IMG/VR virus record: IMGVR_UViG_2541047816_000001 | DNA: 38,662 bases | Origin: a virus | Lineage: Duplodnaviria; Heunggongvirae; Uroviricota; Caudoviricetes | Direction: 5' to 3' (one strand) | Shown: in pieces, positions 1 through 14,734 of the stretch | How the letters are laid out: each line of letters opens with the position of its first letter | How positions within the stretch are numbered: the first letter of the stretch is position 1 | Notes under the pieces: model-generated | Seen by the model: only the letters and a program-made list of their open reading frames with translations | The model's database searches: none | Told to the model about the DNA's origin: nothing | Made by a program: the position numbers and the translations under genes

Positions 1-1053
1 TTACGGGGTAATGCCAACCGCTGCCGCCACTTTGTCGCCACTTGGCAGCGTTGCCAGAGGATTGAAACGGAGCGCCGTTTCTAGATGATCCGGTGCCAGA
101 TGTGCGTAACGCATAGTCATTTTTATATCGTGGTGTCCGAGAATTTTTTGTAAGGCCAGAATGTTTCCACCCGACATCATGAAGTGCGCCGCAAACGTAT
201 GGCGCAGAACGTGTGTGAGTTGACCGCGAGGGAGCACGATAGACGTTTTTTCCATCACGGATAAAAATTGAAAATAGCAGTCTGTGAAGAAATTGAACCC
301 ATCAAGCGCCATGATCTCTTCATAAAGCTCTTTACTGATAGGGATGCTTCTGTTTTTCTTCCCCTTCGTTCTTACAAAGGTAATTCGGTATTTAGTCACC
401 TGTGATCGGGTAAGATTTATTGCTTCTCGCCAGCGTGCGCCTGTGCTTAAGCATATCTTGACTACCAGTGCCAGAATTGGGTCCTGACGTTTGCAATCAG
501 CCAGCAGTTCAACAATCTGCTCATGGGTAAGCCATGCCATCTCTTTTTCTGCGATGGTGAATTTTCGCATGTTCTCCAGTGGGTTTGGATACGACCATTC
601 GCCCAGGCGGGATAGTTCGCTAAAAACACTACTTAGATAGCTTTGCTCCAGGTTAATGGTGACCGGGCTGGCTCCTTTCTTCCATTTCTCGCTGAAGTAG
701 ATCTCACCTGTCAGGCGTTTATCTCGATAGTGGGCAAACATTTTAGAGGTGAGATTGGTTGCAAGAGGATTGCCTAGAGCGTCAACCATCAGCAGCAATT
801 TGTCATAGACATGCTGTCCAGCAGTCAGAGATTTACCATGTAATTTGAACCATAGCTCAACCACGTCTTTCAGGGTTCGACGATCCACTGATTCGCCCAG
901 CCAGGGCTTTGATTCGGTTTCTTCCATCGTGTGACGCTCAAAAGCCAGAGCTTCGCCTTTGGTGGCGAATTGTTTACGCACACGACGCCCACTTCGTCCG
1001 GCGGGGTAACATTCGCAAAGCCATTTCCCTGTGGTGAGTTTTCGTACTGCCAT
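1..1053 (-). CDS. int: Tyrosine site-specific integrase (P2 Int-like)
   Basis: 350-aa ORF; C-terminal catalytic region HVLRHTFAAHFMMSGG...LGHHDIKMTMRYAHL with conserved R, H-x-x-R and Tyr; position at prophage edge next to the repressor region. Confidence 0.9.
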   Translation of the reverse strand: MAVRKLTTGKWLCECYPAGRSGRRVRKQFATKGEALAFERHTMEETESKPWLGESVDRRTLKDVVELWFKLHGKSLTAGQHVYDKLLLMVDALGNPLATNLTSKMFAHYRDKRLTGEIYFSEKWKKGASPVTINLEQSYLSSVFSELSRLGEWSYPNPLENMRKFTIAEKEMAWLTHEQIVELLADCKRQDPILALVVKICLSTGARWREAINLTRSQVTKYRITFVRTKGKKNRSIPISKELYEEIMALDGFNFFTDCYFQFLSVMEKTSIVLPRGQLTHVLRHTFAAHFMMSGGNILALQKILGHHDIKMTMRYAHLAPDHLETALRFNPLATLPSGDKVAAAVGITP

Positions 1054-1082
1054 AAAAAATGCCCTCCAGTGGAGAGCATTTA

Positions 1083-1102
1083 TACTGTTTTTTTATACAG
1101 TG
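1083..1102. promoter_or_regulatory. LexA-box-like motif TACTGTTTTTTTATACAGTG (CTGT-N8-ACAG) in the int upstream region
   Basis: Seen directly: matches SOS box consensus TACTGT-(AT-rich N8)-ACAGT; lies 30-50 nt upstream of the int start codon on the minus strand. Confidence 0.4.
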
Positions 1103-1143
1103 TCAATGTATGATGATTGGATAACTATACATATGTTATGTGT

Positions 1144-1824
1144 TTAATGCATTTTAGTTACATCTATGTTTTTATTGATTGTCTCTTTGTTACTGGAAAG
1201 TCTTTGTTCTTTTCTTTTAATGTATAACTCCCAACGAATATTATTCATTATGATAGCGTAGATATTAAAAATAAATGTCTTTACTACTAACACTAAGTAA
1301 ATAAGGCTAGTCCCTATAACACAGTATCCAAATTTAATAATTAATTCTTTTATCGATTTTGAATATGGAAATAAATCAATTATATTGCCAATTATTCCAT
1401 CTTTTTGACAAAAGAGAATTATTATTAGATAAATGAAAGTAAACGTAATAAATGAGATGAAAACTTTCATAAATGCCATAAAGTTATATTTTAACGTGGG
1501 CATCTGTGTTTTTTTATGTTGTATTGACATCATCTGAAGAAACATCTCGGGTTTGGATAGTGTTGCAAATATTGTGAAACCAGCAATGAGAAAACCTAAG
1601 GTTGTCACTGCAAAGTTAAAACCAATCAAAGCCCAGTTTCTAATGTCAGATACTAAATGAGACATATCCTTCTCAATAAAAAAAGAGTTTGTTAATAAAA
1701 AAATAGATGCTGTGAGCAAAATGCAAATATGGAATGTACTAATAGTAATCCGTTTGCAGAGCAAGTAAACATCCCAAAGGTTTTTCTCTTTGGTTATTTC
1801 TTTAGCATCTATTTTATTTATCAT
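1144..1824 (-). CDS. Hypothetical integral membrane protein, about 4 predicted TM helices, part of AT-rich moron cassette
   Basis: 226-aa ORF; four long hydrophobic stretches; very low GC (about 30%) versus prophage backbone; start overlaps upstream gene stop by 4 nt. Confidence 0.6.
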   Translation of the reverse strand: MINKIDAKEITKEKNLWDVYLLCKRITISTFHICILLTASIFLLTNSFFIEKDMSHLVSDIRNWALIGFNFAVTTLGFLIAGFTIFATLSKPEMFLQMMSIQHKKTQMPTLKYNFMAFMKVFISFITFTFIYLIIILFCQKDGIIGNIIDLFPYSKSIKELIIKFGYCVIGTSLIYLVLVVKTFIFNIYAIIMNNIRWELYIKRKEQRLSSNKETINKNIDVTKMH

Positions 1825-2849
1825 CGACCAAACCTTTCATATATATTGCTAATAATTCTAATCGTCTTTTGTGAAAGAGAACGGGGTAGAGATATCTTAC
1901 CTTCTTCTACAAGATTTTCATACCGCTCATAACTTTCATTTGCAGCTACTACCGTATCCTTTGATAATTCATTCATCTCACTTAACAAAACAAAGTCATC
2001 ATTGCTACCTTTGATTATATCACCATTGTCATCATATCCTTTAATATTTATTCCTGAATTAGCCAATCTGGTTGCTGATGTGAGTTGTTCTAAAACAGCA
2101 CCATGATTCAAGCCTGAATCGGTGTTTGAAAAGCGAATAGATGTAGAAATACTTCCCATTTCGTCTCCGGCACTTTCAAGTGACTCCCAAAATTCGTCGT
2201 TATCAATTTCTTCTTGATTTGTAGGGAGAAGTTTTACTGAGACATTTTGGATTTTATTAAAATTATCAATAAATTGCTCTAGGCTTTGTTTGTCAGTTAA
2301 CGGCGTTATTCTTAGCTTCGGGCGTTTGATTTCGTTCCGTAAGCTTTTTTTAGTGACTCGAGGTAAGTCAGGGTTTTCTTTGCGTTCTTCTTGTGCGGTT
2401 TCGTATAAATGAGATATGTATTTTTCATATTCTATGTTTAAGAAACACTGACTTGTTGACTGAAAGTTTTGAATTGTGGGAGCACCACTAACTTCCTTGC
2501 AAAGAATTAATCTGTGAGTGTTTAATATTAGAAGAAAGAAAGAGCTCGGGGCTGTTTCAAGCTCTTGATGATCTTCAACCAAATCAGCACCATCAAATAC
2601 TTGTTCTCTGGTTAATAATGTATTCTTAATAATCCGACCTTTAATTCCGAGTACTGGGGGTGTTGCTTCTTCGTCAAGTATGACGCATTCAGTATCAATG
2701 AAAAAGAACTCTGATTTGTCAGATATTCTGCGGATGTTTGCCATCTCCAAAAAAGAGGGGAAAACAATTTCATCATAATAGTCTAGCAAAACATCATCAC
2801 CAAAACGGAGAGTATAATTTCCAAATTCGAGTTTTTTTATAAAATCCAT
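1821..2849 (-). CDS. Hypothetical soluble protein, 342 aa, first gene of AT-rich cassette downstream of the repressor
   Basis: Long ORF with acidic stretches and no motif I recognise; 15 nt downstream of the repressor stop, co-oriented, translationally coupled to the membrane protein gene. Confidence 0.6.
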   Translation of the reverse strand: MDFIKKLEFGNYTLRFGDDVLLDYYDEIVFPSFLEMANIRRISDKSEFFFIDTECVILDEEATPPVLGIKGRIIKNTLLTREQVFDGADLVEDHQELETAPSSFFLLILNTHRLILCKEVSGAPTIQNFQSTSQCFLNIEYEKYISHLYETAQEERKENPDLPRVTKKSLRNEIKRPKLRITPLTDKQSLEQFIDNFNKIQNVSVKLLPTNQEEIDNDEFWESLESAGDEMGSISTSIRFSNTDSGLNHGAVLEQLTSATRLANSGINIKGYDDNGDIIKGSNDDFVLLSEMNELSKDTVVAANESYERYENLVEEGKISLPRSLSQKTIRIISNIYERFGR

Positions 2850-2864
2850 TACTATGCCTCAAGA

Positions 2865-3743
2865 TTAAATAGTACGGTACTGTGAGAAAATTTTGGCAAC
2901 TAATTTTATATCTTCTTTTTCACAATCAAATGTTAAATCATCGTCTGTTACTCGAAGATTGCCTCCAGGTAATAGAAAAATTTGTTTTAACTTGAAATTA
3001 TTTTGGTATTGAACAATCCATCTTCCGTCTTCAACATTAGCTTTATTCATGTGTGCAATATTTATGCAATGTTCGTCTTCAATTGCGAGTAAATCATTAA
3101 AATGAGGAAGCAGGGACTTATCTATCAATAAATGACCAGCATCGAAAATTTGATTGTCAATAAGTTTTACTTTAGGAATTTCTAAAGCTTCACTTTCTTC
3201 GCTTCCAAGTTTTTGCCCGCGCCCAGTTGCTAACCATAAAAGAGAAGTTCTTGTTTCCAACGAGCATCTTATGATCCAGTCAGCTGGGAATGTGTCTCGC
3301 AAGTATCTATTCGCCATTGTGCTTTTAGACACATTCAAATGGTCGGCAAGTTCTTGTCTTGTTTTAAAGCCATACGCTTCCATTAGCCTGTTTATCGCAT
3401 TACGTCCACCTGAATCCAGATTTGGATGGTTCACAATTGGGTTCTCGTTGGTGGTGGCTTTGGGAACATATTGAACCAATGATGCTGGTTCCTCTAATTT
3501 AGCGGGAACTTCGGTATTCTTAGGAAATGGCACGCCTTTTCCGAATGAGAGCCACTCTATAGATGCTCCTGTTTCAATTGCACACTGAATTACCCAGTCA
3601 GCAGGAAATGCGTCACGCATCCAGCGCGTTCCCATAGTACTTGCAGATACATTGAACTGTTCACATAGGGCTTGCCGCGTCTTGAATCCATACGCTTCAA
3701 GCATGCGCGTTATGACTGCCTGTCCTCCGTTTTTGAAATTCAT
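2865..3743 (-). CDS. Immunity repressor, phage 186 CI-like, with tandemly duplicated N-terminal HTH domain
   Basis: Two homologous segments (..RMLEAYGFKTRQALCEQFNVSASTMGTRWMRDAFPADWVIQCAIETGASIEWL.. and ..RLMEAYGFKTRQELADHLNVSKSTMANRYLRDTFPADWIIRCSLETRTSLLWL..) resembling the 186 CI N-terminal domain as I recall it, plus a C-terminal domain; position between int and the Apl/Cox-like gene, transcribed divergently from it. Confidence 0.7.
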   Translation of the reverse strand: MNFKNGGQAVITRMLEAYGFKTRQALCEQFNVSASTMGTRWMRDAFPADWVIQCAIETGASIEWLSFGKGVPFPKNTEVPAKLEEPASLVQYVPKATTNENPIVNHPNLDSGGRNAINRLMEAYGFKTRQELADHLNVSKSTMANRYLRDTFPADWIIRCSLETRTSLLWLATGRGQKLGSEESEALEIPKVKLIDNQIFDAGHLLIDKSLLPHFNDLLAIEDEHCINIAHMNKANVEDGRWIVQYQNNFKLKQIFLLPGGNLRVTDDDLTFDCEKEDIKLVAKIFSQYRTI

Positions 3744-4104: not shown

Positions 4105-4632
4105 ATGTCAGAGATGTCGAATATGTTTGATTACCAAGTTTCCAAACATCCACATTTTGATGAAGCCTGTCGTGCATTCGCATTGCGCCACAACCTGGTG
4201 CAACTGGCAGAACGTGCTGGCATGAATGTGCAGATTCTGCGGAACAAGCTGAACCCAGCTCAACCTCATTTATTAACCGCACCAGAAATCTGGCTGCTTA
4301 CCGATCTGACTGAAGATTCAACGCTGGTAGATGGTTTTCTGGCACAGATTCATTGTCTGCCATGTGTACCGATTAATGAGGTGGCAAAAGAGAAACTGCC
4401 ACATTACGTCATGAGTGCAACCGCAGAGATCGGGCGTGTTGCTGCAGGTGCGGTATCTGGCGATGTAAAAACCAGTGCCGGTCGTCGTGATGCCATCAGC
4501 AGCATTAATTCTGTAACACGACTGATGGCGCTGGCGGCTGTTTCATTGCAGGCCCGTTTACAGGCTAATCCTGCGATGGCGAGTGCAGTTGATACCGTGA
4601 CTGGCCTCGGTGCTTCATTCGGTTTGCTGTGA
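4105..4632 (+). CDS. CII-like regulatory protein (186 CII/CP76 family)
   Basis: 175-aa ORF; N-terminal [23 protein letters not shown]... resembles 186 CII as I recall it; position after apl/cox. Confidence 0.55.
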
Positions 4633-4806
4633 GGTGCTTATGCTGACGAAAGAACCATCATTTGCATCGCTGCTGGTAAAACAAAGCCCGGCAATGCACT
4701 ACGGTCACGGCTGGATCATGGGTGAGGATGGTAAACGCTGGCATCCGTGCCGTTCACAAGATGAATTGCTGTCTGAATTGACCACGGGGAAACGGAGAAA
4801 GTCAAA

Positions 4807-5923: not shown

Positions 5924-6222
5924 CAGGGGCTGTGCGTATCCATCAATTAAAAATTGCACCTAAGTATTTCAACGCTGTGGTTGCAGGTCAAAAGACGGCT
6001 GAACTTCGTAAAGACGATCGTGGCTATAAAGTTGGTGATGTTCTTTCTCTTTGCGAATGGAAGCATGGCGTATTTACGGGTAGGGAATGGGCCGCGGTTA
6101 TCTCTCATGTGCTTCCGGTTAATGACGTCATGGCAGTTTCAGAACAATGGGTGATGCTATCAATTCGCTCATTAACCCCATTAGAAGCTTTAGGATATGT
6201 TATTGCAGGAGGTGCTGTATGA
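5920..6222 (+). CDS. Small PUA/ASCH-like domain protein
   Basis: 100-aa ORF from ATG 5920 (ATGA overlap with previous stop, GGAGGTG RBS); sequence pattern ..[28 protein letters not shown].. resembles ASCH/DUF-type domains common in P2-like early regions (family assignment tentative). Confidence 0.45.
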
Positions 6223-7085
6223 GCACCATCCTGAAATGGGCGGGAAATAAAACCGCAATTATGTCCGAACTGAAAAAACACCTTCCTGCTGGCCCGCGAC
6301 TGGTTGAACCTTTCGCGGGTTCCTGTGCTGTGATGATGGAGACGGATTATCCAAGCTATCTGGTTGCGGATATTAATCCTGATTTAATCAACCTCTATAA
6401 AAAGGTTGCCGCTGATTGTGAATCGTTTATATCTCGCGCCAGAGTTTTATTTAAGGAAGCAAACAGGGAGGTGGCTTATTACAACATAAGGCAGGAGTTT
6501 AATTACTCAAATGAAATTACTGATTTCATGAAAGCGGTATATTTCCTGTATCTCAATCGTCACGGTTACCGTGGTTTATGTCGCTATAACAAGAGCGGGC
6601 ATTTCAACATTCCCTACGGTAATTATAAAAATCCGTATTTCCCAGAAAAAGAAATTCGCGCATTTGCAGAAAAAGCCCAGCGGGCAACGTTTATCTGCGC
6701 CAGCTTTGATGAAACGCTGGCGATGTTGAAGGCGGGGGATGTGGTGTATTGCGATCCGCCGTATGACGGCACGTTTTCCGGTTATCACACTGACGGCTTC
6801 ACTGAAGATGACCAGTATCACCTGGCATCCGTTCTTGAACATCGGTCATCAGAAGGACATCCGGTCATTGTTTCTAACAGTGACACATCCCTGATCCGTT
6901 CGCTGTATCGCAATTTTACTCACCACTACATCAAGGCAAAACGCAGCATCGGCGTAGCAGCTGGTGAGAGTAAATCTGCAACAGAAATCATCGCTGTTTC
7001 TGGGCGCGCTGCTGGGTGGGATTTGAGCCTTCGCGTGGCGTGGATAGTTCTGCCGTGTACGGAGTGCGTGCATGAGCCATGCTGA
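6219..7085 (+). CDS. DNA N6-adenine methyltransferase, Dam family
   Basis: N-terminal LKWAGNK, FAGSCAV SAM-binding region and catalytic DPPY motif (CDPPYDGTF); ATG 6219 overlaps previous stop. Confidence 0.8.
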
Positions 7086-9486
7086 TATGAACAACTGCAG
7101 CGGCTTTAACGAGGCCGCCGCAGCATTCTCATGGAACAGCCCGAAAAAGGCTATTAACCCTTATCTGGACCCGGCGGAAGTTGCGCCGGTTTCTGCGCTT
7201 TCAAACCTGATCACTCTGTACGCTGCCGATAACGAGCAGGAACAACTGCGCCGCGAGGCACTGAGTGATCAGGTCTGGGAGCGTTATTTCTTTAATGAAT
7301 CCCGTGATCCTGTCCAACGCGAAATGGAGCAGGATAAGCTCATTAGCCGGGCAAAGCTGGCGCATGAGCAGCAGCGTTTTAATCCAGATATGGTCATTCT
7401 GGCGGACGTCAATGCCCAGCCTTCCCATATCAGCAAGCCGCTGTTGCAACGTATTGAATACTTCAGCAGCCTAGGCAGGCCAAAGGCTTATTCCCGCTAT
7501 TTGCGTGAGACGATTAAGCCATGTCTGGAACGACTGGAGCATGTACGCGACAGTCAGCTATCCACTTCTTTTCGCTTTATGGCAAGCCATGAAGGGCTGG
7601 ACGGCCTGCTGATCCTGCCTGAAATGAGTCAGGATCAGGTGAAACGCTTGTCTACCCTTGTCGCTGCGCATATGAGCATGTGCCTTGATGCAGCTTGTGG
7701 CGATTTGTATGTCACCGATGACGTTAAGCCAGAAGAAATCCGCAAGACATGGGAAAAGGTGGCAGCGGAAACCCTGCGTCTGGATGTCATCCCGCCTGCG
7801 TTTGATCAACTCCGCCGGAAAAGAAACCGCCGTAAACCCGTGCCCTATGAACTCATTCCGGGTTCGCTGGCGCGTATGTTGTGCGCCGACTGGTGGTACC
7901 GGAAATTATGGAAGATGCGTTGCGAATGGCGGGAAGAGCAGTTGCGTGCTGTTTGCCTGGTCAGCAAAAAAGCATCTCCCTATGTCAGCTATGAAGCCGT
8001 GATGCATAAACGTGAGCAGCGCCGTAAGTCGCTGGAGTTTTTTCGTTCTCATGAACTGGTGAACGAAGACGGCGACACGCTGGACATGGAGGATGTGGTA
8101 AACGCCAGCAGCAGCAACCCTGCGCATCGCCGCAATGAGATGATGGCCTGTGTTAAAGGCCTGGAGCTTATCGCGGAAATGCGCGGTGACTGCGCCGTTT
8201 TCTACACCATCACCTGTCCGTCACGTTTCCATTCCACGCTAAATAACGGCAGGCCCAACCCAACCTGGACAAATGCGACGGTAAGACAAAGTAGTGATTA
8301 TCTGGTCGGCATGTTTGCTGCATTTCGTAAGGCGATGCACAAAGCCGGATTGCGCTGGTATGGCGTGCGGGTGGCTGAGCCGCATCATGACGGTACAGTT
8401 CACTGGCACCTGTTGTGTTTTATGCGCAAAAAAGACCGCCGCGCCATCACTGCATTACTGCGTAAGTTTGCCATCCGTGAAGACCGCGAGGAGCTGGGCA
8501 ATAACACTGGGCCGCGCTTTAAGTCTGAGTTGATTAACCCGCGCAAAGGTACGCCAACAAGCTACATCGCGAAATACATCAGTAAGAACATGGACGGGCG
8601 TGGTCTGGCTGGCGAGATCAGCAAGGAAACGGGGAAATCCCTGCGTGATAATGCTGAATACGTTAATGCTTGGGCGTCTCTGCATCGTGTTCAGCAATTC
8701 CGCTTCTTTGGCATTCCGGGGCGTCAGGCTTACCGTGAACTGCGATTGCTGGCTGGTCAGGCGGCAAGGCAACAGGGGGACAAAAAAGCAGGTGCGCCGG
8801 TACTGGATAACCCGCGCCTTGATGCAATCCTGGCTGCTGCTGATGCTGGTTGTTTTGCCACCTACATTATGAAGCAGGGCGGCGTACTGGTTCCCCGCAA
8901 ATATCACCTTATCAGAACAGCTTATGAAATTAACGAAGAGCCGACCGCCTATGGCGATCACGGTATTCGTATTTATGGCATCTGGTCACCCATTGCAGAG
9001 GGCAAGATTTGTACTCATGCAGTGAAGTGGAAAATGGTTCGTAAGGCCGTTGACGTTCAGGAGGCGGCAGCCGACCAGGGCGCTTGCGCCCCTTGGACTC
9101 GTGGCAATAACTGTCCCCTTGCTGAAAATTTGAACCAACAGGAGAAAGATAAATCAACAGATGGGGATACCAGAACTGACATTACCTGTATGGATGACAA
9201 GGAGTTGCACGATTACCTGCATAGTATGAGCAAAAAAGAGCGCCAGGAACTGGCAGCAAGATTACGCCTGGTGAAACCGAAACGGCGTAAAGACTACAAA
9301 CAGCGAATTACAGAGTATCAGCGTCAGCAGCTCGTCTATGAACTGAAGTCAAGAGGATTTGATGGCAGCGAGAAAGAGGTCGATTTACTCCTTCGCGGTG
9401 GCAGTATTCCGTCAGGAGCAGGCCTGCGTATCTTCTATCGGAACCAGCGTTTGCAGGAAGATGATAAGTGGCGGAACCTGTATTAA
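7072..9486 (+). CDS. A: Rolling-circle replication initiation endonuclease (P2 gpA-like)
   Basis: 804-aa ORF; HUH-type motif (GTVHWHLL) followed by paired-tyrosine motif (YIAKYISK); position after early genes. Confidence 0.85.
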
Positions 9487-9577
9487 TCACGTGGGTTAAC
9501 AATTCGTGCTCTTAATAATACCAGGCATATCAGGCTGATGAACGTAAAAAACGTTTTACATCAGTAAGATTATTATA

Positions 9578-9597
9578 TACTGTAAATATAAACAGTG
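9578..9597. promoter_or_regulatory. LexA-box-like motif TACTGTAAATATAAACAGTG
   Basis: Seen directly: CTGT-N8-ACAG with TACTGT/ACAGT flanks and AT-rich spacer, in AT-rich intergenic region about 40 nt upstream of a small ORF with strong RBS. Confidence 0.5.
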
Positions 9598-9638
9598 GTT
9601 GTGCATACAGTATTGCTTGTGGTGTCATAGGAGGAAAG

Positions 9639-9809
9639 ATGCAGGACTATTTTTTGGAGTCTTTGAAGCTCCAGCGCATTGATTTTTTTCTTAAGCTTGT
9701 AGCGGCTAGTGAGTGTAGTGATGAAGAGAAGGGGCTGGCTCTGCAGTGGGTTTCTGAGTTGACTGATGAGCTGATGGCGAGAATTCGCGCTCATGAATAC
9801 AACCACTAG
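9639..9809 (+). CDS. Small hypothetical protein (56 aa), possible SOS-controlled antirepressor-type gene
   Basis: ATG preceded by TAGGAGGAAAG RBS; below the 60-aa threshold of the ORF track; function inferred only from position downstream of the LexA-like box. Confidence 0.35.
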   Translation: MQDYFLESLKLQRIDFFLKLVAASECSDEEKGLALQWVSELTDELMARIRAHEYNH

Positions 9810-9973
9810 ATGGATCTTCCCAGTAGTTTTTCGAAACTGAAAACAACCGAGTGAAAGTTACGACACTTGAGCTTTTCACTTGGGTTATAATCAGAATACT
9901 TGTTTTCGTCCACAAATGTACATGCCATGCATTAATGTGGTGATAGCTTTCAATTTTTACTAAATGGTTTCAA

Positions 9974-10528
9974 TTGCTTCTTATGAATCATGTAATGTTA
10001 GATATAGAAACATTGGATGTTGAAAAAACAGCTTATATCCTTTCAGTTGGTGCGGCTTTTTTCGTGCCGGAGACTGGCGAGATTGGTCCGGGTTTCTATC
10101 AAGTTATTTCGCTTGATCATGAACAAGCAGGCAGAACCATTGCCCCCTCTACTGTAAAGTGGTGGATGAATCAAAGTACTGAAGCTAAAAACGAAAATTT
10201 TGATGGCACTAAGGACCTTTTAGAGGTTCTGAATGAATTTGTGGCATTTATTCTTCATAATCGTACTGGCCGAGTAAAAGTGTGGGGAAACGGGAAAGAG
10301 TTTGACTGCACGATCATGCATCATGCCCTGTTACAGGCGGGTCTGGATTGCCCATGGTCATTCAGAGATACTCTTGACGTTAGAACCATCTTAGCACTTG
10401 GTGAAAGCAAAGGAATTTTTTCTCATGCTGATAAAAATTTCACTGGCATTAGGCACACAGCATTCGATGATGTTTTATTTCAGATCGCACAGGTTTCTCA
10501 CATCTATATGAATTTAAATAAAAAATAA
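9974..10528 (+). CDS. DEDDh-family (DnaQ-like) 3'-5' exonuclease domain protein
   Basis: Motifs in order: DIETLD (Exo I), VWGNGKEFD (Exo II region), HTAFDD (Exo III His/Asp). True start probably ATG 9983 or 9995 rather than TTG 9974. Confidence 0.6.
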   Translation: MLLMNHVMLDIETLDVEKTAYILSVGAAFFVPETGEIGPGFYQVISLDHEQAGRTIAPSTVKWWMNQSTEAKNENFDGTKDLLEVLNEFVAFILHNRTGRVKVWGNGKEFDCTIMHHALLQAGLDCPWSFRDTLDVRTILALGESKGIFSHADKNFTGIRHTAFDDVLFQIAQVSHIYMNLNKK

Positions 10529-10543
10529 ATATAGGACTTAGCT

Positions 10544-11455
10544 ATGGATTGCTTAGATGTAACCTATTGGACTGAGCTAGATGTTTTCGCACAGTATCCT
10601 GTTGGTGCTCGCTCTAAGGCATTGGTTATTTCCCCTGATGTTGCCCCCCATGGTATCAAAGCATCGTGGCCGTATCTTTTTAAGAGAAGTATTAAAAAAT
10701 ACCCAGATCAATTTTGGTGTGAGATCGTTGCCTACAGGATTGGATTGCAGCTTGGTTTTAATGTCCCCAAAGCAGTTCCTTCGTTAAAGACTAATGATTT
10801 GGGGCATACGTTTTGCGGGGCCCTCATTGAGTGGTTTCATCATAAAGATTATGAGAAATTTGCTCCCGCTGGTGATTACTTTGTTCGAAGAGATCCAAAT
10901 TTTGATCGTGAGAAAGGAGCTAAGCATTCCATTGAAGGGCTGAGGATTATCGCGAAAGCTCTTAAAGTTGACTATGTTGAGTGGTTGGAGAATATGGCTC
11001 TCTTTGACGCAGTAATAGGTAATACAGATAGACATCAAGAAAACTGGGGGTTTATCTTCTCCCCTTTAACCAGCGAGTGTCAGCTTGCACCATTTTTCGA
11101 TAATGGTACGAGCTTATGCTACGAACGCTTTCCGGAACATGTTGCTGATTGGACCGATCATAGACTCAGGGAGCATGTTAGCCGGGGAAAGCATCATTTG
11201 CGTAAAACTCTGGGCAAAGATGAGTATCAGAGATTAGGTCATTTAGAGTTAATCAAAGAACTTTGTGATAAAAAAGAAGAATTAAAACAGCGGGTAGCTG
11301 AAAGACTGGCTCGTTTGAACCATGACTTTTGGGACTCAACTTTTGCGGAGTTGACGGAAATAAACTGCCCTGTTCCGCTGACTAGAGAACGTGCTGCATG
11401 GATTGTTCGTGTAACAAACATGCGTATTGAACTGATTAAAGGTGTTACTTCATGA
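10544..11455 (+). CDS. HipA-family Ser/Thr kinase core lacking the HipA N-subdomain (HipT-like)
   Basis: Three HipA kinase motifs in correct order and spacing: G21-ARSK (cf. HipA GAQEK), IGNTDRHQEN at 158-167 (catalytic loop, cf. HipA GATDGHAKN), FFDNGTS at 184-190 (Mg-binding, cf. HipA FYDI); 303 aa. Confidence 0.6.
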   Translation: MDCLDVTYWTELDVFAQYPVGARSKALVISPDVAPHGIKASWPYLFKRSIKKYPDQFWCEIVAYRIGLQLGFNVPKAVPSLKTNDLGHTFCGALIEWFHHKDYEKFAPAGDYFVRRDPNFDREKGAKHSIEGLRIIAKALKVDYVEWLENMALFDAVIGNTDRHQENWGFIFSPLTSECQLAPFFDNGTSLCYERFPEHVADWTDHRLREHVSRGKHHLRKTLGKDEYQRLGHLELIKELCDKKEELKQRVAERLARLNHDFWDSTFAELTEINCPVPLTRERAAWIVRVTNMRIELIKGVTS

Positions 11456-12156
11456 CTATCTTAATAGAAAAAATTCCCATGCCAAGTAGGCTCTTACTGA
11501 CATGGCAACCGACCGACGGCGGCTCTCGCTATGTCGTTGGTGAACTTCTTCAAGATGAGTCTGAAGGCTACGAGTTTAATTATCTTACGGATAGCAAAGA
11601 TTTTGCTAAAGCTGGGGATAAAGGCTTTCACGGTTTTCCTGCTTTTGACATAAAAGTTACGACTCATCGCAAAGACGTTATGCAAACCTTTTCAAGAAGG
11701 TTACCCTCCAGGAAAAGAGAAGATTTTGCCGATTACTTGCTGACGTTTCGTCTTCCTGCTGATTTTAGAGAGAATGACTTCGTTTTGCTCGCTTGTACTG
11801 GCGGAAAAGTGGCTAGTGATGGTTTTTATTTTGTCCCAGACTTGTCTTCTATTCGGCCACCTTTTGATTATGTCATGGAGGTCGCCGGAACGAGACACAT
11901 GATTAAGGAAGGGCGTCTAGCTCTTGACGAGATATCAATTGGTGATGAAGTCATATTGCGCAATGAAGATACCAATACTGTTGATCCGCTGGCCATATTA
12001 GTAACGAAAAACGACAATCATCTAGGGTATGTCAACAAGGCATTGTGCGCCGCATTACGAGATCTTAGTAAAAACCATGATATCAGTGGAGTGGTCGTAC
12101 GTAAAAATGGCTCTTCGGATAGGCCTTTGATTTATGCAAAAGTATCTGTTAGATGA
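11452..12156 (+). CDS. HipS-like N-domain fused to C-terminal HIRAN domain
   Basis: N-terminus LLTW...VGEL...F.Y pattern parallels the HipA N-subdomain (LVTW..VGEL..FKY); C-terminus GDEVILRNEDTNTVDPLAILVTKNDNHLGYVNKALCAALRDL fits the HIRAN signature; start overlaps kinase stop by 4 nt (ATGA). Confidence 0.5.
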   Translation: MTILIEKIPMPSRLLLTWQPTDGGSRYVVGELLQDESEGYEFNYLTDSKDFAKAGDKGFHGFPAFDIKVTTHRKDVMQTFSRRLPSRKREDFADYLLTFRLPADFRENDFVLLACTGGKVASDGFYFVPDLSSIRPPFDYVMEVAGTRHMIKEGRLALDEISIGDEVILRNEDTNTVDPLAILVTKNDNHLGYVNKALCAALRDLSKNHDISGVVVRKNGSSDRPLIYAKVSVR

Positions 12157-12560: not shown

Positions 12561-12827
12561 GCCGCGGGTTGAAATAGTAAAATTCACTTAGCCTCAGGCC
12601 CGCTGATGGTTTTCTTCTGAAAGGGAGGGCGCGTTTTTGTGCAATCTTGTTTGAAGGGATTTAAATAAATGTTGAATGTGTTCCGGAGTTGGCTGTAGAT
12701 TTAGTGTTCTGTCACAAGTTGCAGTGATAGGTAGCAAACCTTTAAAAGGTTCTGCTATTGTTTCATTAAAGATTTATAGTCTTTGTCCGAAAATGACATT
12801 AAAGTAGTCGCCTTTAATGTCGTAAGC

Positions 12828-13382
12828 ATGAAGGACAGAGAATTGAACTTAGAGCAGATTGCCAGTCAAAGTATAAGTAACCTTCAGTTTCTCCTCGATA
12901 CTTTGAAGATGCCGTTGGCTGTTGGTCCAATCAGTGATGAAGACTATGTGATCCTGACCACAGGATACGCTCAGCTAGAATGGGATTATGGTTTTTCTCG
13001 GTTTGGCAATCGAAGTGATAAGTTTGAATTTTGTTTGAAGCTCCTTGCGGGGCCACTTAGGCATATCCCTTCTGGCGCAGCTATGTGCACCTTTGACGAG
13101 GACGCTGGAGTCATAGAGATCCATTTTGTGGAATCTTTTGTGAAAGATGATGACGTAGAGCACCCTCTTTACGGCAACATGTTCATGGTTACATTGTGGG
13201 CGGTATATCTTTTTGGTAGCGCGGTTGGGTGTCAAGAGATTCGGATCCCTGAAGCCCTGAATCAAAAAGTTGCTGACCACTATAAAAAATTTGGTTTTAA
13301 AGGTGATATAAGCTTGCTTTCGGCACCTTTTGCTACAATAACTGATGTAGTAAGACGCTACATTACTTCTAAGAAACAGTAG
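12828..13382 (+). CDS. Hypothetical cargo protein, weak GNAT-like C-terminal pattern
   Basis: ORF open from 12783 (TTG) with first ATG at 12828; C-terminal ..NQKVADHYKKFGFKG.. weakly resembles GNAT motif B; assignment tentative. Confidence 0.4.
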   Translation: MKDRELNLEQIASQSISNLQFLLDTLKMPLAVGPISDEDYVILTTGYAQLEWDYGFSRFGNRSDKFEFCLKLLAGPLRHIPSGAAMCTFDEDAGVIEIHFVESFVKDDDVEHPLYGNMFMVTLWAVYLFGSAVGCQEIRIPEALNQKVADHYKKFGFKGDISLLSAPFATITDVVRRYITSKKQ

Positions 13383-13696: not shown

Positions 13697-14734
13697 CTAG
13701 TCAGTATTAAGCTCATATGGATTGAATCGGACTACCTCTTCACCAAGCCATTCATTTAGCTCCAGCAATCGCTTTTGTAACGGTACTATTTCGTTTCTTG
13801 TGAAGACGCGACTGGCCTTTTCCACATCCCCAAAACCGCCGGTATTGTTGGGAATGATACCCATCATTTGCGGCGGCACACGATGCGCCGCCATCATGTC
13901 GTCCCGGCTCACGTTCTTGATATTCAGGAACTCATCCTTCGCCGCCACTTCTGACAACGGGATAATCTGAAGCCCATCCTTTTTGCCGTTAGGCGAGTAC
14001 ATAAACAGGTTACGGAAGTTACCAGGACCTTTGGCACTTTTCATTGCGTTGCGGAGGTTGTTCACATCCTCCTGGTTCTGCGCGGCGTCGGTCATGTACA
14101 TGATGAAGCCCGCATGGCTGCCGTTAATGTAATACTTCCGGCGGAACAGCGTGGCGGACTCGTTGAGCAGGGCTGACGGAATGGCAGAAAGATAACCGGG
14201 CAGGCCGTAGATCTCCTGGTTGATGTCCGGCTCCATCAGATGAAAAATGCTGCCTTTCGTGAACTGATACGGCTGGGTTGTCATACCGTATTGCACAAAC
14301 CAGTAGGTATCCAGGTCTAACCCGCGTCGGGTGTATTTTGCCAGAGCAGGCTCAAGGGCTATAACTTCACCGAAGCGGTTCGTGCGTTTCTCCAGGTAGG
14401 CGTTACCAAAAACCAGAAAGTCCTGTACAAAACGCGAAAAAGCCTGCTGGCTGAGCAGCGGGTGAGGGATGTAGGTGCTGGTCAGAATGTTGCACTTCAC
14501 TGCAATCGGTGAGCTATGATGTATGGCGGCGCGGAAGGTTCGCGCCAGTCCGTCGAAACTCACTGGTGGCTCATACCAGCGATCCATCTGTACGCATTCC
14601 ACATAGTCCAGCAGTTCGCGGCGGTCCAGAACAGGAACGGGATCACCGAAGCTGAATGCTTCGGCTGAAGTCTGGCTTTTATGCTGGATCTGTTTCGTCG
14701 ACGCAGCGCGGTTCTTCTTACTCTTTCCCATCAA
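13697..14734 (-). CDS. Q: Portal protein (P2 gpQ-like)
   Basis: 345 aa; size and position upstream of terminase ATPase; P2 late-gene synteny. Confidence 0.8.
   Translation of the reverse strand: MMGKSKKNRAASTKQIQHKSQTSAEAFSFGDPVPVLDRRELLDYVECVQMDRWYEPPVSFDGLARTFRAAIHHSSPIAVKCNILTSTYIPHPLLSQQAFSRFVQDFLVFGNAYLEKRTNRFGEVIALEPALAKYTRRGLDLDTYWFVQYGMTTQPYQFTKGSIFHLMEPDINQEIYGLPGYLSAIPSALLNESATLFRRKYYINGSHAGFIMYMTDAAQNQEDVNNLRNAMKSAKGPGNFRNLFMYSPNGKKDGLQIIPLSEVAAKDEFLNIKNVSRDDMMAAHRVPPQMMGIIPNNTGGFGDVEKASRVFTRNEIVPLQKRLLELNEWLGEEVVRFNPYELNTD

What the first reader, a model, noticed from the sequence alone, without database searches (positions are those of the whole stretch)
9578..9809. LexA-box-like motif upstream of a 56-aa ORF: candidate SOS-inducible antirepressor (Tum-like logic) at the head of the accessory region
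Seen: TACTGTAAATATAAACAGTG (9578-9597) followed by a strong RBS (TAGGAGGAAAG) and a 56-aa ORF that is not in the supplied ORF track. Established knowledge: phage 186 is SOS-inducible through a LexA-controlled antirepressor gene (tum) located to the right of gene A; this prophage has a 186-type CI. Inference: the small ORF is an antirepressor candidate. Alternatively, the same promoter may drive the downstream exonuclease-kinase-HIRAN operon in an SOS-dependent manner.
Basis: partly seen in the sequence, partly recalled or inferred. Interest (0 to 1): 0.5.

Follow-up and report, generated by a model that had tools for sequence, protein, structure and literature searches.

The report
SOS-controlled prophage antirepressor gene (tumA)

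Summary

The ORF is a stand-alone homologue of the N-terminal antirepressor domain of phage 186 Tum, like PSP3 TumA and Fels-2 STM2728. It matches the 62-aa "tum" gene of the E. coli HS prophage DuoHS at 53 of 56 residues. Published Δtum and lexA(Ind-) mutants of that prophage no longer lyse after mitomycin C, and the deletion primers map onto the same RBS and start codon.

Across 41 species-level genomes:
- The ORF is under strong purifying selection.
- 38 loci keep the LexA box.
- Nearly all keep a TTTACA -35 hexamer 17 nt upstream of TACTGT.

New details:
- The operator is a double, overlapping, colicin-type SOS box, unlike the single box of 186.
- This allele is six codons short because of a premature TAG.
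- No DinI-like partner gene follows it.
- A second LexA box lies inside the integrase promoter.

Whether SOS transcripts continue into the downstream exonuclease/kinase/HIRAN cargo is open.

Novelty is low. The value lies in annotation.

The parts
9546..9551 (+). A-tract just upstream of the -35 hexamer; possible proximal UP-element subsite
   Evidence: An A5-7 run 3-4 nt before TTTACA recurs in most of the 41 related loci. Its role is inferred, not tested.
9555..9560 (+). -35 hexamer TTTACA of the tum promoter (5 of 6 to TTGACA)
   Evidence: Of the 44 promoters scored, 28 have TTTACA and 7 TTCACA, and 37 place the hexamer exactly 17 nt before TACTGT. It corresponds to the annotated -35 TTCACA of 186 p95.
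9578..9583 (+). -10 hexamer TACTGT, the first 6 nt of LexA box 1. TATACT at 9576-9581 is an alternative reading.
   Evidence: The same hexamer is annotated as the p95 -10 in the phage 186 record. TATACTGT is conserved in nearly all loci.
9578..9597 (+). LexA box 1, TACTGTAAATATAAACAGTG (core CTGT-N8-ACAG at 9580-9595)
   Evidence: It is unique in the window at 3 or fewer mismatches, present in 38 of 41 loci, and has an approximate HI of 4.6.
9593..9612 (+). LexA box 2, CAGTGGTTGTGCATACAGTA (core GTG-N10-CAG at 9595-9610). It overlaps the box 1 core by 1 nt, as in colicin operators.
   Evidence: It sits in the same register in Fels-2, E. coli HS and 20 of 41 loci. The Fels-2 version is about 90% identical over 42 nt to pesticin, klebicin and ColE1-like operators. 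It is the third-best distinct LexA-like site in the window, with an approximate HI of 10.1 or 13.3 depending on the strand read. The window allele differs from Fels-2 at 4 spacer positions.
9628..9638 (+). Ribosome-binding site TAGGAGGAAAG
   Evidence: (A/T)AGGAGG(G/A)AA is conserved before the ATG in nearly all loci. Window 9619-9641 is identical to the genome-matching part of primer NHR24, used to delete tum in E. coli HS.
9639..9809 (+). tumA: 56-aa stand-alone Tum-N-terminal-type antirepressor, predicted to be a helical hairpin
   Evidence: AF2 pLDDT 90, helices 2-23 and 28-55.
9807..9826 (+). Premature TAG stop followed by the relic of the ancestral C-terminal tail codons (ATGGATCTTCCCAG-TAG)
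   Evidence: Alignment with L213 and L212, which read ...AACCGCTCAATGGATCTTCCCGGTTAG (NRSMDLPG*, 62 aa). The family norm is 62 aa.
9810..9973 (+). Spacer between tumA and the exonuclease gene, with no consensus promoter or intrinsic terminator on the + strand
   Evidence: hairpins without a U-tract; fold z-score -1.6; no Rfam family. It is about 90% conserved in L212 and L213.

Best explanation
Positions 9546-9809 are the SOS switch of a Fels-2/DuoHS-type P2-like prophage.

**How it works**
1. In a healthy lysogen, LexA occupies box 1, which contains the -10 hexamer, and probably a second overlapping box 2. This colicin-type double operator keeps the promoter tightly shut.
2. DNA damage activates RecA, LexA cleaves itself, and the promoter fires.
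3. The well-translated 56-aa helical-hairpin protein TumA is made.
4. Like the N-terminal half of phage 186 Tum, TumA binds the prophage's non-cleavable 186-family CI repressor (2865-3743, minus strand) and stops it binding its operators.
5. The early lytic promoter opens and the prophage excises and replicates.

**Shown here**
- The sequence anatomy and its conservation.
- Homology to Tum and TumA.
- Near-identity to a gene whose deletion abolishes induction.

**Inferred**
- LexA binding to these particular boxes.
- Direct TumA-CI contact in this phage.
- Activity of the 56-aa truncated allele.
For: **Anatomy:**

**Position:** directly right of gene A (Phage_GPA, E 2e-127), exactly as tum lies in 186, tumA in PSP3 and STM2728 in Fels-2.

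**Promoter:** the geometry equals that annotated for 186 p95, with the -10 TACTGT as the start of the LexA box.

**Homology:** reciprocal in-register PHROG profile hits; hhalign P = 8e-5 over residues 1-43 in register; bridging homologue L215.

**Function of the orthologue**
- PMC12055606 reports that Δtum and lexA(Ind-) abolish MMC lysis of E. coli HS prophage DuoHS.
- The primers define ECHS_RS04495 as the deleted gene. It is 53/56 identical to the window ORF, with the first 47 residues identical.
- PMC3121763 states that Fels-2 and PSP3 have tum split in two and that the upstream half is the antirepressor in PSP3.

**Selection:** dN/dS about 0.05-0.16.

**Repressor:** the CI is of the 186 family and no peptidase S24 domain was detected, so it needs an antirepressor.

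**Double operator:**. On colicin operators, PMC2994835 says two LexA dimers bind, there is no basal expression, and untimely lethal expression is prevented.
Against: - No experiment exists on this allele.
- A premature TAG makes it 6 residues shorter than the 62-aa family norm.
- Its box 2 differs from the Fels-2/colicin version at 4 positions and scores poorly on its own.
- Its CI is heteroimmune to that of DuoHS: 44% identity, with an extra HTH domain. Cognate recognition is therefore assumed, not shown.
- RefSeq flags a frameshifted dam gene and a partial fil gene in the identical prophage, so some decay is possible.
- Pairwise BLASTP between the ORF and 186 Tum or PSP3 TumA finds nothing. 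Homology rests on profiles and an intermediate sequence.
Confidence: 0.85

Rival explanations
1. The LexA-controlled promoter also, or mainly, serves as the promoter of an SOS operon that continues through the exonuclease (9974-10528), the HipA-like kinase (10544-11455) and the HIRAN protein (11452-12156). The cargo would then be switched on by DNA damage or during induction, as 186 p95 also transcribes orf97. This is not exclusive of the antirepressor role.
For: - No consensus + strand promoter or intrinsic terminator lies between tumA and the exonuclease gene, either in the window or in the distant relative L215.
- The order tumA, exonuclease, kinase, HIRAN is kept in P2-like contigs L215-L217 at only 30-45% protein identity; L218 keeps gpA, exonuclease, kinase and HIRAN, but no tumA hit was found there.
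- In 186, the p95 transcript passes the partial terminator t95a into orf97.
- STM2726-STM2727-STM2728 is listed as one operon among those selected in the operon analysis of mutagen-treated Salmonella; the direction of change was not read.
Against: - The HipA-like and HIRAN pair matches the candidate defence system PDC-M03. Prophage defence genes are normally expressed in the uninduced lysogen, which needs a LexA-independent promoter.
- A perfect TATAAT at 9886-9891 with a poor -35 could be such a promoter.
- Two hairpins in the spacer could attenuate read-through.
- There are no transcript data.
Confidence: 0.35
2. The ORF is a decaying, non-functional allele. The premature stop and the loss of the DinI-like partner have disabled SOS induction, so the prophage is effectively locked in.
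For: - A premature TAG replaces the last six codons.
- There is no DinI-like gene anywhere in the window, whereas 21 of 41 related loci have one about 10 nt after tumA.
- RefSeq flags a frameshifted dam gene and a partial fil gene in the identical prophage.
Against: - The missing tail is the most variable part of the family (SMDVIN, SMDLPG, LMNQAE and others) and lies outside the region shared with 186 Tum (residues 1-44).
- Residues 1-47 are identical to the functional HS protein.
- An independent 56-aa allele exists (L034).
- 20 of 41 loci also lack DinI.
- In PSP3 the upstream gene alone is reported to carry antirepressor activity.
- The promoter, operator and RBS are intact.
- The identical allele is found in 5 complete E. 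coli genomes and 4 IMG/VR contigs.
Confidence: 0.1
3. The LexA-like motif and the small ORF are chance features of an AT-rich intergenic region, or the ORF on the opposite strand (9573-9806, 77 aa) is the real gene.
For: The ORF has no Pfam or NCBIfam family. A mechanical 77-aa ORF exists on the minus strand.
Against: - 0 of 100 shuffles give such a box.
- The box, the -35 hexamer and the RBS are conserved at fixed spacing across genera.
- Third-position variation and low dN/dS fit the + frame.
- 452 database homologues were found.
- The orthologue has a genetic phenotype.
Confidence: 0.01

Closest known systems
tum of E. coli HS prophage DuoHS (ECHS_RS04495, WP_001154431.1) and Fels-2 STM2728
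   Same: The promoter, box 1, overlapping box 2 register, RBS and start codon are the same. The protein is 53/56 (HS) and 53/56 (Fels-2) identical, and the gene lies in the same place after gene A. Deleting the HS gene abolishes MMC induction.
   Different: - The window allele ends 6 codons early.
- Its box 2 spacer differs (GTGGTTGTGCATACAG, against GTGGTTATACATACAG in HS and GTGGTTATATGTACAG in Fels-2).
- HS and Fels-2 have a DinI-like gene 10 nt downstream, while the window has the exonuclease/PDC-M03 cargo.
- The CI repressors are heteroimmune, at 44% identity.
Tum of coliphage 186 (146 aa; p95 SOS operon)
   Same: The logic and layout are the same: a LexA box whose first 6 nt are the -10 TACTGT, located right of gene A, with a 186-family CI as target. 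Residues 1-44 are homologous.
   Different: - In 186 the antirepressor domain is fused to a DinI-like C-terminal domain with internal starts. Here it stands alone.
- 186 has a single LexA box; here there is a double overlapping one.
- Direct pairwise similarity is undetectable by BLASTP.
PSP3 TumA/TumB
   Same: tum is split into a small upstream antirepressor gene (60 aa) under a LexA box, right of gene A. Its CI also has a duplicated HTH.
   Different: It belongs to a different subfamily: phrog_1993 rather than phrog_698, with hhalign only P = 0.05 against the window family. It has a single LexA box, and TumB (DinI) is present.
Colicin, klebicin and pesticin double overlapping SOS operators
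   Same: Two LexA cores overlap by one base and lie at or after the -10. The Fels-2 allele shares a 22-nt exact stretch (CAGTGGTTATATGTACAGTATT) and about 90% identity over 42 nt with these operators. Both govern an output that is lethal to the cell.
   Different: They control a bacteriocin operon on plasmids, not a phage antirepressor. The window's box 2 has diverged at 4 spacer positions. Cooperative LexA binding here is untested.
LexA-controlled antirepressors of lambdoid and other prophages (Gifsy GfoA/GftA, N15 AntC)
   Same: The regulatory logic is the same: LexA represses a small antirepressor that inactivates a non-cleavable repressor by binding it.
   Different: No sequence relationship was detected or tested here. 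They differ in phage type, repressor family and gene order (in Gifsy the dinI gene comes first).

Membership tests
Tum / TumA antirepressor of 186-type P2-like phages | Sequence homology to the N-terminal (non-DinI) domain of 186 Tum | tested here: met
   Reciprocal, in-register PHROG profile hits; hhalign P = 8e-5 over 1-43 against 1-43; the bridging protein L215 is 51% identical to Tum 1-43 and 32% to the window ORF. Direct BLASTP is negative.
Tum / TumA antirepressor of 186-type P2-like phages | The gene lies immediately right of replication gene A and is transcribed in the same direction, ahead of the variable region that ends at portal gene Q | tested here: met
   gpA is at 7072-9486, the ORF at 9639-9809 and the portal gene at 13697-14734 on the minus strand. 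The layout is the same in 186, PSP3, Fels-2 and HS.
Tum / TumA antirepressor of 186-type P2-like phages | The promoter is repressed by LexA through a box overlapping the -10 | tested here: inconclusive
   The sequence criterion is met and conserved. LexA binding to this DNA cannot be tested here. The lexA(Ind-) phenotype exists for the HS orthologue.
Tum / TumA antirepressor of 186-type P2-like phages | The partner repressor is a 186-family CI without a RecA-dependent autocleavage domain | tested here: met
   The window CI has two Phage_CI_repr domains plus Phage_CI_C, with no peptidase S24 hit. It is 29% identical to 186 CI.
Tum / TumA antirepressor of 186-type P2-like phages | The protein binds CI and prevents operator binding, and is required for SOS induction | not testable with these tools
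   There is only indirect support: Δtum of the 95%-identical HS orthologue abolishes MMC lysis, and the 186 record annotates full-length Tum as inhibiting CI DNA binding.
Tum / TumA antirepressor of 186-type P2-like phages | A DinI-like domain is fused (186) or encoded immediately downstream (PSP3 TumB, Fels-2 STM2726.1) | tested here: not met
   tblastn finds no DinI-like sequence anywhere in the window. 20 of 41 related loci also lack it, so it is an accessory rather than a defining feature of the antirepressor.
Colicin-type double overlapping SOS operator | Two CTG-N10-CAG-type cores overlap by 1 nt, the second with a degenerate left half (GTG), located at or just after the -10 | tested here: met
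   The cores are at 9580-9595 and 9595-9610. They align with pesticin, klebicin and ColE1-like operators.
Colicin-type double overlapping SOS operator | Cooperative binding of two LexA dimers, giving very tight repression | not testable with these tools
   This is inferred from the colicin literature. The window's box 2 has 4 spacer changes and an approximate HI of 10-13.

The most novel reading that the evidence does not exclude
The prophage may carry a small LexA regulon of its own with three outputs:
- tumA behind a colicin-type double operator. This cassette is about 90% identical over 42 nt to bacteriocin operators, which suggests exchange of a ready-made 'lethal-output' SOS switch between Col plasmids and P2-like phages.
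- A dedicated integrase promoter whose 16-nt spacer is itself a LexA box (1079-1106, minus strand).
- Read-through from the tum promoter into the exonuclease/HipA-like/HIRAN (PDC-M03) cargo. That would make this candidate defence module SOS-induced, and would explain why it stays next to tumA in phages only 30-45% identical.
Probability: 0.3. Interest if true: 0.5.

Novelty: already known. Interest (0 to 1): 0.25.

Why it matters
**Biology.** This adds nothing new in kind. LexA-controlled Tum-type antirepressors are the established induction route of 186-like P2 phages, and the near-identical DuoHS gene has been knocked out.

**Annotation.**
- RefSeq calls this protein 'hypothetical' in about 1,100 of 5,426 complete E. 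coli genomes.
- PHROGs lists its family (phrog_698) as of unknown function.
- Pfam and NCBIfam have no model for it.
- Linking it firmly to Tum lets inducibility of Fels-2-type prophages be predicted from sequence.

**Testable leads.** The double colicin-type operator, the LexA box in the integrase promoter, and the possible SOS coupling of a candidate defence module are modest but testable.

Tried and rejected
- **Pairwise BLASTP:** the ORF against 186 Tum and PSP3 TumA gave nothing. TumA against Tum also gave nothing, so BLASTP is uninformative at this length and divergence.
- **Family libraries:** Pfam, NCBIfam and PADLOC have no family for the ORF.
- **Solved structures:** no PDB sequence match.
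- **Structure prediction:** AF2 gives a confident helical hairpin, but Foldseek against the PDB returns only generic helical hits, none with E at or below 0.001. The fold does not help.
- **Promoter and terminator scan:** nothing at 9400-10100. The tum promoter is missed because its -10 is weak, so the scan cannot settle whether the cargo has its own promoter. The same holds for L215.
- **Rfam:** no family in 9300-10100.
- **Literature:** Bunny et al. 2002 (PMC151935), the primary paper on Fels-2 tum, is not in the held library. Its content is cited only through PMC3121763.
- **'Levan regulatory protein':** this label on some homologues was rejected as an unsupported carried-over name.
- **Recombination junction:** I first read the end of homology to Fels-2, near 9815, as a junction inside the ORF. 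Alignment with L213 shows a point-mutational premature stop in an SMDLPG-tail lineage instead.

Full report
**Context.** The window is a P2/186/Fels-2-like prophage.
- Integrase lies at 1-1053 (minus strand) and a 186-family CI at 2865-3743 (minus strand).
- CII lies at 4105-4632 and replication gene A at 7072-9486 (Phage_GPA, E 2e-127).
- The portal gene lies at 13697-14734 (minus strand).
- The finding sits in the 152-nt gap right of gene A, at the start of the variable region between A and the portal gene.

**Observation.** The sequence is as described: TACTGTAAATATAAACAGTG at 9578-9597, TAGGAGGAAAG at 9628-9638, and ATG at 9639 through TAG at 9807-9809, giving 56 aa.
- The box is the only site in the window within 3 mismatches of the palindromic LexA consensus. 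None of 100 shuffles produced one.
- With an approximate heterology-index matrix that I built from E. coli LexA sites recalled from memory, it scores 4.6. That is in the range this matrix gives recA (4.8) and sulA (3.8), and it ranks second of all 20-mers in the window.
- The consensus promoter scan is silent. The reason is that the -10 is TACTGT, the same weak hexamer annotated as the -10 of 186 p95.
- A TTTACA -35 lies 17 nt upstream (9555-9560), preceded by an A-tract.

**Conservation.** The segment 9489-9815 is about 93% identical to Fels-2 and to many Klebsiella and Salmonella P2-like phages. It occurs in 1,101 of 5,426 complete E. coli genomes. I also analysed 41 species-level loci from Escherichia, Citrobacter, Klebsiella, Enterobacter, Pantoea, Erwinia, Tatumella and others.
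- The ORF is almost always 62 aa.
- It shows strong purifying selection. Mean pN/pS is 0.16, and against Fels-2 dN is 0.023 and dS 0.444. Entropy by codon position is 0.37, 0.19 and 0.99.
- 38 loci have CTG-N10-CAG at the equivalent place.
- Of 44 promoters scored (these loci plus the window, Fels-2, 186, PSP3, L215 and L216), 37 place the best -35-like hexamer, mostly TTTACA or TTCACA, exactly 17 nt before TACTGT.
- The opposite-strand 77-aa ORF is therefore spurious, and the + strand gene is real.

**Identity of the protein.** Pfam, NCBIfam and PADLOC have no model for it, and PHROGs places it in phrog_698, 'unknown function'. Homology to Tum rests on three lines.
- In Fels-2 the orthologue STM2728 is followed by a DinI-family gene annotated as similar to PSP3 TumB. 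PSP3 has tumA (60 aa, 'similar to 5' end of 186 tum; UV induction of prophage') followed by tumB.
- Pairwise BLASTP fails, but profiles connect the proteins in register. The window ORF hits phrog_698, phrog_8554 and phrog_1993 at 1.6e-33, 2e-8 and 3e-3. 186 Tum residues 1-69 hit the same families at 6e-6, 3e-12 and 2e-23, both over residues 7-44. PSP3 TumA hits phrog_1993 at 3e-32. My own hhalign of family alignments gives P = 8e-5 over residues 1-43 against 1-43.
- A 54-aa protein from a distant P2-like contig (L215) bridges the two. It is 51% identical to 186 Tum 1-43 (E 2e-11) and 32% identical to the window ORF 1-50 (E 4e-10).

AF2 predicts a confident helical hairpin (pLDDT 90), with the conserved Cys26 in the turn.

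**Functional evidence from the literature.**
- PMC3121763 states that Fels-2 and PSP3 have tum split by a stop codon, and that the upstream PSP3 gene encodes the antirepressor. It cites Bunny et al. 2002, which I could not read.
- PMC12055606 made an in-frame Δtum in the E. coli HS P2-like prophage DuoHS. Δtum and lexA(Ind-) both abolish mitomycin-C-induced lysis and virion foci.
- The deletion primers map exactly onto ECHS_RS04495 (WP_001154431.1, 62 aa, 'hypothetical protein') in NC_009800. The genome-matching 23 nt of primer NHR24 are identical to window 9619-9641.
- The HS protein matches the window ORF at 53 of 56 residues, and the first 47 are identical.

**Differences from 186: the operator is double.**
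- A second core, GTG-N10-CAG (9595-9610; 20-mer 9593-9612), overlaps the first by one base.
- The same arrangement is present in Fels-2, E. coli HS and 20 of the 41 loci. The Pantoea/Erwinia clade, 186 and PSP3 have a single box.
- The Fels-2 version is about 90% identical over 42 nt to the operators of pesticin (pPCP1), a klebicin and ColE1-like plasmids, including a 22-nt exact stretch. In total 1,118 plasmid records match.
[quoted passage not shown] The same rationale fits a prophage induction switch.
- The window's box 2 differs from Fels-2 at four spacer positions. It is weak on its own (approximate HI 10-13) but is still the third-best distinct LexA-like site in the window.

**Differences from 186: this allele.**
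- Alignment with 89%-identical relatives carrying the same cargo shows that the 56-aa length comes from a premature TAG. L213 reads NRSMDLPG*, while the window reads NH* followed by the relic ATGGATCTTCCCAG-TAG.
- The lost tail is the most variable part of the family and lies outside the Tum-homologous region. An independent 56-aa allele also exists (L034). I judge the allele probably active, but this is untested.
- No DinI-like gene follows it or occurs anywhere in the window. That is also true of 20 of 41 loci.

**Repressor.**
- The CI belongs to the 186 family (Phage_CI_repr plus Phage_CI_C). It has two HTH domains, as PSP3 CI does.
- It is only 29% identical to 186 CI and 44% identical to HS CI.
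- TumA, in contrast, is 82-96% identical across phages whose CIs are 34-46% identical to this one. It presumably reads a conserved CI surface, and this remains unexplained.

This question stays open.
- Downstream lie a Rv2179c-like 3'-5' exonuclease, a HipA-like kinase and a HIRAN protein. The last two match the PADLOC candidate defence system PDC-M03, at E 4e-36 each.
- No consensus + strand promoter, intrinsic terminator or Rfam element lies in the 164-nt spacer. The same is true of the distant relative L215.
- The order tumA, exonuclease, kinase, HIRAN persists in L215-L217 at 30-45% protein identity; L218 keeps the cargo after gpA, but no tumA hit was found there.
- The 186 p95 transcript is annotated as continuing into orf97.
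- Against this, a defence module would be expected to be expressed in the uninduced lysogen, and a TATAAT at 9886-9891 might serve that purpose.
- I put co-transcription at about 0.35.

**Verdict.** The element is already known: a tumA-type LexA-controlled antirepressor and an orthologue of DuoHS tum and Fels-2 STM2728. Interest is low, and lies in fixing the 'hypothetical protein' annotation and in the side observations: the colicin-type double operator, the LexA box in the integrase promoter, and possible SOS coupling of the cargo.

Noticed in passing
window 1079-1106 (minus strand), upstream of int (1053..1): A near-consensus promoter whose 16-nt spacer is itself a LexA box: TTGACA-CTGTATAAAAAAACAG-TATAAA. 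The 20-mer CACTGTATAAAAAAACAGTA has the best LexA-like score in the window (approximate HI 3.0). It lies about 25 nt before the integrase start codon, which suggests an SOS-controlled int promoter. An equivalent site exists in E. coli HS (TTGACA-CTGGTTATACATACAG-TAAAAA). The region occurs in 913 E. coli genomes and in Klebsiella phage 4LV2017, and partly matches an annotated LexA site of phage phi80. It is absent from Fels-2 and 186, where int abuts cI.
   Followed up: partly
window 9974-12156; loci L209-L218: The cargo after tumA is a Rv2179c-like 3'-5' exonuclease, a HipA-like kinase and a HIRAN protein. The kinase and HIRAN proteins match the PADLOC candidate defence system PDC-M03 A/B, at E 4e-36 each. 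The exonuclease travels with them in P2-like phages that are only about 40% identical, so the unit may have three genes.
   Followed up: partly
window 2865-3743 (minus strand): The CI repressor is 291 aa with two tandem Phage_CI_repr HTH domains plus Phage_CI_C, like PSP3 CI and some Klebsiella P2-like phages. No CI in the phage collection is more than 48% identical, so this is a distinct immunity type.
   Followed up: partly
window 9639-9809 compared with 2865-3743; phage hits: TumA is 82-96% identical across phages whose CI repressors are only 34-46% identical to this one. The first 47 residues are identical to the E. coli HS protein, although the two CIs are 44% identical. Either TumA reads a conserved CI surface, or the immunity module is swapped independently of tum.
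   Followed up: no
window 1144-2849 (minus strand): Two ORFs of 342 aa and 226 aa (the latter hydrophobic) are inserted between cI and int. They have no Pfam or PADLOC match and are probably another accessory (moron or defence) island. The insertion coincides with int having its own promoter.
   Followed up: no
Fels-2 L001 4085-4126; plasmid loci L005-L007: The Fels-2 tum operator shares a 22-nt exact stretch (CAGTGGTTATATGTACAGTATT) and about 90% identity over 42 nt with colicin, klebicin and pesticin operators on 1,118 plasmid records. That is more than LexA-binding constraints alone would require, which raises the possibility of exchange of a regulatory cassette.
   Followed up: partly
window 6147-7085 and about 4640-4795: In the identical prophage of E. 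coli SF-173, RefSeq marks the DNA adenine methylase gene as frameshifted and the fil gene as partial. These hint at some decay in the early region.
   Followed up: no
window 12783-13382: A 199-aa ORF lies between the cargo and the portal gene. It belongs to phrog_4350 (unknown function, E 3e-77) and has no Pfam or PADLOC hit.
   Followed up: no
window 9535-9564: An imperfect inverted repeat, CTGATGAACGT-AAAAA-ACGTTTTACATCAG, spans the A-tract and the -35 hexamer of the tum promoter. It could be a weak terminator for the gene A transcript or a binding site. It is conserved in Fels-2 and HS but not in more distant loci.
   Followed up: no
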